Shown here: positions 18,546-18,785 of the stretch, in pieces
How the letters are laid out: every line of letters begins with the position of its first letter
Numbering within the stretch: position 1 is the first letter of the stretch
Assembly: GCF_056712565.1 (NCBI RefSeq)
Contig: NZ_CM160072.1
DNA length: 64,000 nt
Strand: one strand, 5' to 3'
Made by a program: the position numbers and the translations under genes
The notes under the pieces: generated by a model
The model's input: only the letters and a program-made list of their open reading frames with translations
Database searches by the model: none
What the model was told of the DNA's origin: nothing

Positions 18546-18785
18546 TATAATCCCTTGTAACGTAAAAACTGCAAAACAAAAGTCCTACGCAGGAATTATT
18601 TACGTTTTACGAGAACCCTTCAATATGAATTAAAGTGCGGCATGAAAAATAAGAAAAAAGCCTGACAAATGAAGCATTTTAAAAACAGAAACATTCATAT
18701 TTAAAATATTAAATTGAATTGATATTTTAAATATGAATAATTTATTCGTTCTGACAGTACGAATAAGATATGCAGTCAACAAATG

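What the first reader, a model, noticed from the sequence alone, without database searches (positions are those of the whole stretch)
18693..18738. 17-bp perfect inverted repeat in the AT-rich chiA upstream region
attcatatttaaaatat (18693-18709) and its exact reverse complement atattttaaatatgaat (18722-18738) are separated by 12 bp, inside a 290-bp AT-rich promoter region. A palindrome this long is a candidate operator or nucleoid-protein nucleation site in a gene known to be silenced.
Basis: seen in the sequence. Interest (0 to 1): 0.3.

Follow-up and report, generated by a model that had tools for sequence, protein, structure and literature searches.

The report
AT-rich palindrome upstream of E. 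coli chiA
A real and statistically unusual 46-bp AT-rich palindrome lies 105-150 bp upstream of the start of the H-NS-silenced chitinase gene chiA in E. coli, but it occurs only in E. coli and shows no sign of special constraint, so it is most likely an ordinary part of the AT-rich silencing tract, not a dedicated operator.

Summary
18693-18709 and 18722-18738 are exact reverse complements. This is the longest perfect inverted repeat in the 64-kb window, and 0 of 5000 shuffles of the intergenic region reach 17 bp.

The window is E. coli: gsp, bfr, bfd, chiA, tufA, fusA. Using the published chiA transcription start (43 nt upstream of the ATG, window 18588), the palindrome spans -105 to -150. 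It lies about 50 bp downstream of the tufA terminator and is tied for the most AT-rich 46 bp of the window (91% AT).

It is single-copy and present in about 58% of complete E. coli genomes, those that carry chiA. About half of these carry the exact sequence. K-12 has an uncompensated arm change that leaves 15 bp. Arm polymorphism equals the intergenic background, whereas the core promoter and 5' UTR are nearly invariant. Three syntenic tufA-chiA spacers from other Enterobacteriaceae are equally AT-rich but have no palindrome.

The best H-NS-motif matches in the spacer cluster in and beside the palindrome, but they are only moderate. I rejected NagC, ARG-box, IHF, Rfam and dispersed-repeat readings.

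Best reading: it is the core of the H-NS-bound upstream tract, and its symmetry came from a local mutational event. Rivals are a neutral by-product, an unknown regulator's operator, and a back-up terminator for tufA read-through. Low interest.

The parts
18693..18709 (.). Promoter-proximal arm of the palindrome (ATTCATATTTAAAATAT on the + strand), at -105 to -121 relative to the chiA start site
   Evidence: Two inner positions (18705, 18708) vary among E. coli lineages.
18710..18721 (.). 12-bp spacer (TAAATTGAATTG). It contains the tandem AATTG-AATTG and the two best in-palindrome H-NS-motif matches (TCAATTCAAT and TCAATTTAAT on the minus strand).
   Evidence: Three of 12 positions vary within E. 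coli.
18722..18738 (.). Promoter-distal arm (ATATTTTAAATATGAAT), at -134 to -150
   Evidence: Invariant in the 11 E. coli sequences aligned.
18742..18766 (.). Second, 25-bp quasi-palindrome (TTATTCGTtCTGaCAGtACGAATAA). It is chained to the first through the perfect 13-bp palindrome GAATAATTTATTC (18735-18747).
   Evidence: (repeat I2) and direct reading. One arm position (18765) is polymorphic.
18786..18813 (-). GC-rich intrinsic terminator of tufA / the str operon
   Evidence: Folds at -19.1 kcal/mol. Conserved in all orthologous spacers.
18619..18630 (-). Third copy (11 of 12) of the outer arm 12-mer: ATTCATATTGAA in chiA sense, overlapping the -35 hexamer (-42 to -31)
   Evidence: repeats D6, I5. 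Reached in 59 of 2000 shuffles.
18588..18623 (-). chiA core promoter: -35 TTGAAG (18623-18618), -10 AATAAT (18600-18595), start site G at 18588, which is 43 nt upstream of the ATG at 18545
   Evidence: Promoter scan. Published start site at 3467918 in NC_000913, confirmed by 5' RACE. My conversion to window coordinates carries about 2 nt of uncertainty.
18650..18670 (.). A-tract block with the highest predicted intrinsic curvature in the spacer, between the palindrome and the core promoter. It contains TTTTCTTA (chiA sense, -69 to -62), an exact match to the BglJ-RcsB core wwTTCykA.
15843..18545 (-). chiA coding sequence (bifunctional chitinase/lysozyme, 900 aa)

Best explanation
The palindrome is the AT-richest core (91% AT, 7 TpA steps) of the upstream half of the chiA promoter region. 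[quoted passage not shown] To the extent that it does anything, it most likely acts as part of the AT-rich tract on which H-NS binds and spreads to silence chiA. H-NS-like 10-bp sites sit in its centre and on its distal flank, and a predicted curved A-tract block lies between it and the core promoter. The exact dyad symmetry is most likely a by-product of a local mutational event in the E. coli lineage, such as an inverted duplication or template switching that perfected a quasi-palindrome. It is probably not a feature selected for a dimeric protein. Shown here: existence, non-randomness, position, single-copy status, distribution, and lack of conservation. Taken from the literature: H-NS repression of chiA. 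Inferred: that H-NS contacts this particular stretch, and the mutational origin.
For: Real and non-random. Position -105 to -150 relative to the mapped start site. chiA is described as H-NS-silenced and is expressed as highly in an hns stpA mutant as with constitutive BglJ. The palindrome is tied for the most AT-rich 46-mer of the 64-kb window; the other top spot is the gspA-gspC promoter region, which is the other H-NS-silenced unit here and is also palindromic. With a matrix built from the 11 published H-NS sites, 4 of the 5 best hits in the spacer lie at -124 to -155, inside and beside the palindrome (7.4, 7.1, 7.1, 6.8 bits). That is comparable to the weaker validated sites such as virF 7.5, hns 7.7 and fis3 6.6. 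No extra constraint on the symmetry: arms have 2 variable sites in 34 bp against 2.7 expected, with uncompensated changes in K-12 and EC21Z, while the core promoter and UTR have 1 in 85. Orthologous spacers keep the AT-richness (28-32% GC) but not the palindrome.
Against: No H-NS binding data at base-pair resolution were available to me. None of the motif hits approaches the high-affinity proV site (11.4 bits), and such hits are expected at about four times the window's overall rate in this AT-rich spacer anyway. The palindrome itself is not predicted to be curved; it sits at about the median of the window. A 17-bp perfect repeat is far beyond what composition alone produces, so an unrecognised selective reason for the symmetry cannot be excluded. 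A third copy of the arm 12-mer at the -35 (p about 0.03) is not explained by this reading.
Confidence: 0.5

Rival explanations
1. It is a functionless by-product. An inverted duplication or template-switch event in a mutable AT-rich spacer produced a perfect palindrome in the E. coli ancestor. It has since been drifting and does not contribute measurably to chiA control, beyond being AT-rich DNA.
For: It is restricted to E. coli; three syntenic orthologous spacers have no inverted repeat above shuffle expectation. Arm polymorphism equals the background, there are no compensatory changes, and about half of chiA-positive genomes differ by one base within the 54-bp stretch. Published mutation of a motif at about -150 had no effect on BglJ-RcsB activation. 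In a large metagenome collection, unrelated low-GC contigs carry the same 12-nt arms as parts of quite different hairpins.
Against: The outer 12 bp of both arms are invariant in all 11 E. coli lineages examined and in 8 metagenomic copies. The perfect form is the majority state across phylogroups, so decay is slow. This reading overlaps the best explanation and differs only on whether H-NS occupancy here matters.
Confidence: 0.25
2. It is an operator for a sequence-specific regulator. The half-site TTATTC(A/G)T / A(C/T)GAATAA occurs five times in the spacer: the two outer ends of the palindrome, the two arms of the adjacent 25-bp quasi-palindrome, and one copy abutting the -35. A dimeric or tetrameric protein could bind upstream and at the -35 and loop the DNA. 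Candidates are an RcsB-family partner or an unidentified factor.
For: Three copies of ATTCATATT(T/G)AA, one overlapping the -35, reached in 59 of 2000 shuffles. The half-sites resemble the RcsB half-site tatTCctA, with matches to the RcsAB box of 10/14 at -104.5 and 9/14 at -150.5. BglJ-RcsB activates chiA through this spacer, and its binding site was never found.
Against: At 46 bp, with arm centres 29 bp apart, it is too long for a single dimer. It is not conserved in orthologous promoters, and the copy at the -35 is also E. coli-specific. The inner arms vary without compensation. No further copies exist in the window, including the co-regulated gsp promoter. Mutation of the predicted motif at about -150 had no effect on BglJ-RcsB activation. 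Mapped BglJ-RcsB sites lie at -52 to -79, where chiA has a better candidate. NagC invariant positions are not met (and direct reading).
Confidence: 0.12
3. It is a back-up intrinsic terminator or insulator. On transcripts that read through the tufA terminator, the palindrome folds into a 17-20-bp A-U hairpin followed by GUUUCUGUUUUU. This would stop residual transcription from the very strongly expressed str operon before it reaches chiA.
For: In the tufA/chiA sense the hairpin folds at -15.2 kcal/mol (z = -4.95) and is followed one base later by a run with 9 U in 11 nt. It lies downstream of the main terminator and upstream of the chiA start site, so only read-through RNA contains it.
Against: The stem is almost entirely A-U with a weak base, which terminates poorly. 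The consensus scan does not call it. The main terminator is strong (-19.1 kcal/mol, UUCG loop, U-tail). Orthologous spacers keep only the GC-rich terminator. K-12 tolerates a shortened stem.
Confidence: 0.1
4. It is a cruciform-forming, supercoil-sensitive element. The AT-rich near-perfect 20+6+20 palindrome extrudes under negative supercoiling and changes promoter-region topology.
For: As single-stranded DNA each strand folds at -11.9 kcal/mol (z = -5.9). It has perfect 17-bp arms and an AT-rich context.
Against: There is no evidence of extrusion. The site lies downstream of a very active transcription unit, where positive rather than negative supercoiling is generated (established twin-domain model). 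It is not conserved.
Confidence: 0.03

Closest known systems
H-NS nucleation sites and AT-rich upstream silencer regions (proU negative regulatory element TCGATATATT; bgl upstream silencer; motif tCGATAAATT of Lang et al. 2007, PMC2094087)
   Same: An extremely AT-rich tract with TpA steps, upstream of a promoter that the literature describes as H-NS-silenced. Motif-like 10-mers cluster in and beside it, interspersed with weaker AT-rich sequence, as described for silenced genes.
   Different: The best matches are moderate (about 7 bits against 11.4 for proV). The element is a long perfect palindrome, which is not a feature of described H-NS sites. H-NS contact at these bases has not been shown.
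RcsAB box (TaAGaatatTCctA) and the BglJ-RcsB motif (core wwTTCykA), PMC3950696
   Same: The outer ends of the arms (TATTCATA / TATGAATA) resemble the RcsB half-site. chiA is a BglJ-RcsB target whose site is unknown.
   Different: The half-sites are 30 bp or more apart instead of adjacent. The best whole-box matches are 9-10 of 14. Mutation of a predicted motif at about -150 had no effect. Mapped sites lie at -52 to -79, not -105 to -150.
Rho-independent terminators
   Same: A stable hairpin followed by a U-rich run, in the sense of upstream transcription.
   Different: The stem is nearly all A-U, the loop is 6-12 nt, it sits behind a canonical terminator, and it is not conserved.
NagC/Mlc operators (23-bp quasi-palindromes) of the GlcNAc/chitobiose regulon
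   Same: AT-rich quasi-palindromes next to a chitin-related gene. The neighbouring 25-bp element has the form TTATTCG...CGAATAA.
   Different: The only invariant operator positions (TT at -6/-5, AA at +5/+6) are not met in any of the palindromes here (and direct reading).

Membership tests
H-NS high-affinity / nucleation site | AT-rich (about 78% or more) with a central TpA step | tested here: met
   91% AT with 7 TpA steps in 46 bp; tied for the most AT-rich 46-mer of the window. Criterion from PMC2094087.
H-NS high-affinity / nucleation site | Good match to the 10-bp motif tCGATAAATT / TCGATATATT | tested here: inconclusive
   A matrix built from the 11 published sites gives best hits of 7.4 (CGAATAAATT, -155), 7.1 (TCAATTCAAT, -129) and 7.1 (TCAATTTAAT, -124). 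proV scores 11.4 and weak validated sites score 5.2-7.7.
H-NS high-affinity / nucleation site | Demonstrated H-NS occupancy at these bases | not testable with these tools
   Only secondary statements were available: that chiA is H-NS repressed and that qRT-PCR shows derepression in hns stpA. The primary paper (Francetic et al. 2000, Mol Microbiol 35:1506) is not held.
H-NS-preferred curved DNA | Intrinsic curvature | tested here: not met
   A wedge-model profile, with parameters recalled from memory and checked on phased A-tract controls, puts the palindrome at about 5-6 degrees per turn, near the window median. The flanking block 18650-18670 is at the 97th-99th percentile.
Operator of a dimeric transcription factor | Dyad symmetry | tested here: met
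   17-bp perfect arms, or 20-bp arms at 95%.
Operator of a dimeric transcription factor | Conservation in orthologous promoters, or compensated variation | tested here: not met
   Absent from three syntenic tufA-chiA spacers, whose longest inverted repeat is 6 bp and below shuffle expectation. E. coli variants break the symmetry without compensation.
Operator of a dimeric transcription factor | Recurrence of the motif at other promoters (a regulon) | tested here: inconclusive
   No other copy in the 64-kb window with 2 or fewer mismatches, including the gsp promoter. The rest of the genome was not searchable for short motifs.
NagC/Mlc operator | Invariant TT at -6/-5 and AA at +5/+6 around the centre of a 23-bp quasi-palindrome | tested here: not met
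   Criterion from PMC4288165. The 25-bp element has GT...AC, and the 13-bp sub-palindromes have AT...AT or GA...TC (direct reading).
RcsAB box / BglJ-RcsB site | 14-bp TaAGaatatTCctA, or core wwTTCykA at about -52 to -79, needed for activation | tested here: not met
   Best box matches are 10/14 (-104.5) and 9/14 (-150.5). The only exact core match lies outside the palindrome at -69 to -62. Published mutagenesis at about -150 was negative.
Rho-independent terminator | GC-rich stem followed within 0-2 nt by a U-tract, inside a transcribed region | tested here: inconclusive
   The hairpin (-15.2 kcal/mol) and U-rich tail are present, but the stem has only 2 G-C pairs. The consensus scan does not call it. 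It is transcribed only by read-through.
Dispersed repeat (REP/BIME, ERIC, MITE) | Multiple copies per genome | tested here: not met
   One locus per genome in 3162 genomes; the 'two places' reported per genome are the two strands of the same palindrome.
Known RNA family (Rfam 15) | Score at or above the gathering threshold | tested here: not met
   The only hit is SraG at 20.7 bits against a threshold of 50, E = 0.42.

The most novel reading that the evidence does not exclude
The palindrome and the matching 12-mer at the -35 could form a three-site operator system, together with the adjacent 25-bp quasi-palindrome built from the same TTATTC(A/G)T half-site. An as yet unidentified E. coli-specific regulator, possibly an RcsB partner, would loop about 74-108 bp of DNA to shut or open the chiA promoter independently of H-NS.
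Probability: 0.07. Interest if true: 0.45.

Novelty: new member of a known kind. Interest (0 to 1): 0.15.

Why it matters
chiA encodes a secreted chitinase that the literature describes as silent in laboratory E. coli. By recall, not checked here, it has also been implicated in adhesion of adherent-invasive strains. If the palindrome were a true nucleation or control site, it would offer a defined handle for studying how H-NS silencing starts at a small, simple promoter placed directly behind one of the most heavily transcribed operons. As things stand, it mainly illustrates that very AT-rich silenced spacers can carry striking, lineage-specific palindromes with no detectable constraint. That is a useful caution against reading long palindromes as operators.

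Tried and rejected
- **Rfam scan of 18300-19000 at a permissive threshold.** Only a sub-threshold SraG hit.
- **NagC/Mlc operator.** Invariant positions not met.
- **ARG box.** TGAAT-N5-ATTC has spacing one base too long (direct reading; consensus recalled from memory).
- **IHF core WATCAANNNNTTR.** The TTR is out of register (direct reading; consensus from memory).
- **SlyA-like TTA-N6-TAA 12-mer.** TTAAAATATTAA is present at 18701-18712. Such matches are trivial in AT-rich DNA, and chiA was not among the SlyA-induced transcripts.
- **Dispersed repeat or mobile-element end.** It is single-copy. The junction of the chiA-gsp presence/absence polymorphism lies at the tufA terminator, 47 bp away.
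- **Conservation search by protein.** The genome-contig scan gave only 3 loci. Orthologous spacers were then recovered through protein homologues and their contigs.
- **Residual homology of the distal arm with orthologous spacers.** The best local alignments of three orthologues all fall on -128 to -149, but none beats shuffles (p = 0.15-0.77).
- **Metagenome scan for the 12-nt arms with a variable spacer.** It returned 8 E. coli chiA loci, all with the same 46-bp architecture, plus 38 unrelated AT-rich hairpins. There is no family.
- **Small ORF 18630-18788 (52 aa, TTG start inside the terminator).** Dismissed as mechanical.
- **Primary paper on chiA and H-NS.** It could not be read.

Full report
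**The observation**

The two 17-mers are at the stated coordinates and are exact reverse complements with 12 bp between them. The repeat finder extends them to 20-nt arms at 95% complementarity around a 6-nt centre. This is the longest perfect inverted repeat (spacer up to 40 bp) anywhere in the 64-kb window; the runner-up is 13 bp.

Chance does not explain it. In 5000 dinucleotide-preserving shuffles of the 291-bp, 30% GC intergenic region, the longest perfect repeat averaged 7.3 bp and never exceeded 14. The analytic expectation is about 4e-6 for this region.

One structural point was not in the finding. Each arm contains its own 13-bp palindrome (ATATTT-W-AAATAT), so the arms are also direct repeats 25 bp apart.

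**Genomic context**

The window is Escherichia coli. The intergenic region is 100% identical to strain ATCC 11775. The annotated order is gspO, bfr, bfd, chiA, tuf, fusA, rpsG. chiA (15843-18545) and tufA (18837-20021) are both on the minus strand, so the region reads, in gene sense: tufA stop, GC-rich terminator (18813-18786), AT-rich spacer, chiA.

Salscheider et al. (PMC3950696) state that the chiA start site mapped earlier was confirmed by 5' RACE at NC_000913 position 3467918. I converted this using the offset between the two versions of the K-12 record, which I recalled from memory, so allow about 2 nt of uncertainty. That places the start 43 nt upstream of the ATG, at window 18588. This is 7 nt downstream of the -10-like AATAAT that the promoter scan pairs with TTGAAG at 17-bp spacing.

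The palindrome therefore spans -105 to -150. It is upstream of the start site, so it is not part of the chiA mRNA. A genomic SELEX study also lists a sigma-S holoenzyme peak in this spacer, close to the core promoter.

**Distribution within E. coli**

- The locus is single-copy. It occurs in 3157-3162 of 5426 complete E. coli genomes, about 58%.
- The 'two places per genome' reported by the search are the two strands of the same palindrome.
- O157:H7 and other lineages lack chiA altogether. In O157:H7 a divergent bfd sits directly next to the tufA terminator.
- Among chiA-positive genomes, about half match the 54-bp stretch around the palindrome exactly, and about half differ at one base.

I aligned eleven diverse E. 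coli sequences.

- The distal arm is invariant.
- The proximal arm varies at two inner positions.
- K-12 and LD93-1 carry a change that leaves 15 perfect bp. EC21Z-147 carries a different one.
- None of these changes is compensated.

Counting variable sites gives the following:

| Segment | Variable sites | Length |
|---|---|---|
| Palindrome arms | 2 (2.7 expected from the spacer average) | 34 bp |
| Palindrome spacer | 3 | 12 bp |
| Core promoter plus 5' UTR | 1 | 85 bp |

Detectable constraint therefore sits on the core promoter and leader, not on the palindrome.

**Orthologous promoters**

ChiA homologues at 72-77% identity are encoded in the same tufA-chiA-bfd-bfr-gspO arrangement in three other lineages:
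- two unnamed enterobacterial assemblies (L017, L019);
- a Superficieibacter-type genome (L020/L004).

Their tufA-chiA spacers keep the GC-rich terminator, a -35/-10 pair at the equivalent position, and a similar base composition (28-32% GC). The rest of the sequence has diverged and the palindrome is absent.

Their longest perfect inverted repeat beyond the terminator is 6 bp, below the shuffle mean. So neither the sequence nor the palindromic property is conserved.

The best local alignments of all three fall on the distal arm (-128 to -149). None beats shuffled controls (p = 0.15-0.77), so I treat this as possible residual homology only.

A metagenome scan for the outer 12-nt arms with any spacer of 10-40 nt found 8 E. 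coli chiA loci, all with the same 46-bp architecture. It also found 38 unrelated hairpins in low-GC contigs. There is no wider family.

**What it most likely is**

Two papers state that chiA is repressed by H-NS. One also shows by qRT-PCR that chiA is as highly expressed in an hns stpA mutant as with constitutive BglJ.

The palindrome is 91% AT with 7 TpA steps. It is tied for the most AT-rich 46-mer of the window. The other top spot is the gspA-gspC promoter region. The literature describes that unit as H-NS-repressed too, and it contains its own, different, palindrome.

I built a crude weight matrix from the 11 H-NS sites tabulated by Lang et al.. Four of the five best hits in the spacer lie at -124 to -155. 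Two are in the palindrome's centre and two are on its distal flank. Their scores are 6.8-7.4 bits, comparable with the weaker validated sites but far from proV at 11.4.

I also ran a wedge-model curvature profile. Its parameters were recalled from memory, and phased A-tract controls behaved as expected. The palindrome itself comes out straight, and the curved segment is the A-tract block at 18650-18670, between the palindrome and the promoter.

Together this fits the picture described for silenced genes: moderate motif matches embedded in AT-rich DNA, upstream of a promoter. I conclude that the palindrome is the core of the H-NS-bound upstream tract. Because the symmetry is neither conserved nor protected from mutation, it most likely arose by a local mutational event in the E. 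coli lineage. That H-NS touches exactly these bases is an inference, not a demonstrated fact.

**Rival: a sequence-specific operator**

There is a lead. The outer 12-mer recurs at 11 of 12 positions, overlapping the -35 (18619-18630). Only 59 of 2000 shuffles match this.

The half-site TTATTC(A/G)T also builds the neighbouring 25-bp quasi-palindrome (18742-18766). A perfect 13-bp palindrome (18735-18747) links that element to the large one.

The half-site resembles the RcsB half of the RcsAB box. BglJ-RcsB activates chiA through this spacer, and its binding site was never found.

Several things count against this reading:
- The element is too long for one dimer.
- Neither it nor the -35 copy is conserved in orthologues.
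- Published mutagenesis of a predicted motif about 150 bp upstream did not affect BglJ-RcsB activation.
- Mapped BglJ-RcsB sites lie at -52 to -79. In that range chiA has an exact core match, TTTTCTTA, at -69 to -62, outside the palindrome.
- NagC, the obvious chitin-related candidate, fails on its invariant positions.

**Rival: a back-up terminator**

In the tufA/chiA sense the palindrome folds at -15.2 kcal/mol and is followed by GUUUCUGUUUUU. Only read-through transcripts from tufA would contain it.

However, the stem is nearly all A-U, the consensus scan does not call it, the main terminator is strong, and orthologues lack any second hairpin.

**Other rivals**

Cruciform extrusion is physically possible but unsupported. 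No Rfam family matches.

**Verdict**

The setting is an H-NS-silenced promoter and the element is plausibly part of the H-NS tract.
- This is an ordinary, lineage-specific feature of a known kind of region, and interest is low.
- The most novel reading still open is a three-site looping operator for an unidentified regulator. I put its probability at about 7%.

Noticed in passing
window 4112-4136 (gspA-gspC divergent promoter region, 4064-4242): A second AT-rich perfect palindrome, TATGTATTTA-ttaat-TAAATACATA, lies in the promoter region of the other unit here that the literature calls H-NS-silenced. This spot ties with the chiA palindrome as the most AT-rich 46 bp of the window. Its sequence is unrelated to the chiA element.
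   Followed up: partly
window 18650-18657 (chiA sense TTTTCTTA, -69 to -62): This is an exact match to the BglJ-RcsB core motif wwTTCykA. It sits at the 65-68-bp distance reported for five mapped BglJ-RcsB sites and inside the predicted curved A-tract block. The published study reported no site for chiA, so this is a candidate for the missing activator site.
   Followed up: partly
window 18742-18766 and 18735-18747: A 25-bp quasi-palindrome (TTATTCGTtCTGaCAGtACGAATAA) and a perfect 13-bp palindrome (GAATAATTTATTC) chain onto the large palindrome. As a result, -105 to -178 is a run of overlapping dyads built from one half-site (and direct reading).
   Followed up: partly
window 18619-18630: A third copy (11 of 12) of the palindrome's outer 12-mer overlaps the chiA -35 hexamer. 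Shuffles reach this in 59 of 2000 trials. It is not conserved in orthologous promoters.
   Followed up: yes
window about 2594-18785 (gsp to chiA block); locus L002: The chiA-gsp block is a presence/absence polymorphism: about 58% of complete E. coli genomes carry the chiA spacer. In O157:H7 a divergent bfd allele sits directly next to the tufA terminator, so this is an alternative haplotype and not a simple deletion.
   Followed up: partly
locus L015 (E. coli, GCA_040884085.1), 1501-3900: A common 799-aa ChiA allele (about 90% identity over 86% of the 900-aa protein) sits behind an intergenic region identical to the window, including the perfect palindrome. The protein has diverged or been remodelled while the spacer has not.
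   Followed up: no
window 15690-15735 (upstream of bfd): There is an AT-rich stretch, aaataaatgaaaatagttcttatttcaatt, between chiA and bfd, which resembles a Fur box from memory. A SELEX paper lists a constitutive sigma-70 promoter for bfd-bfr in this spacer.
   Followed up: no
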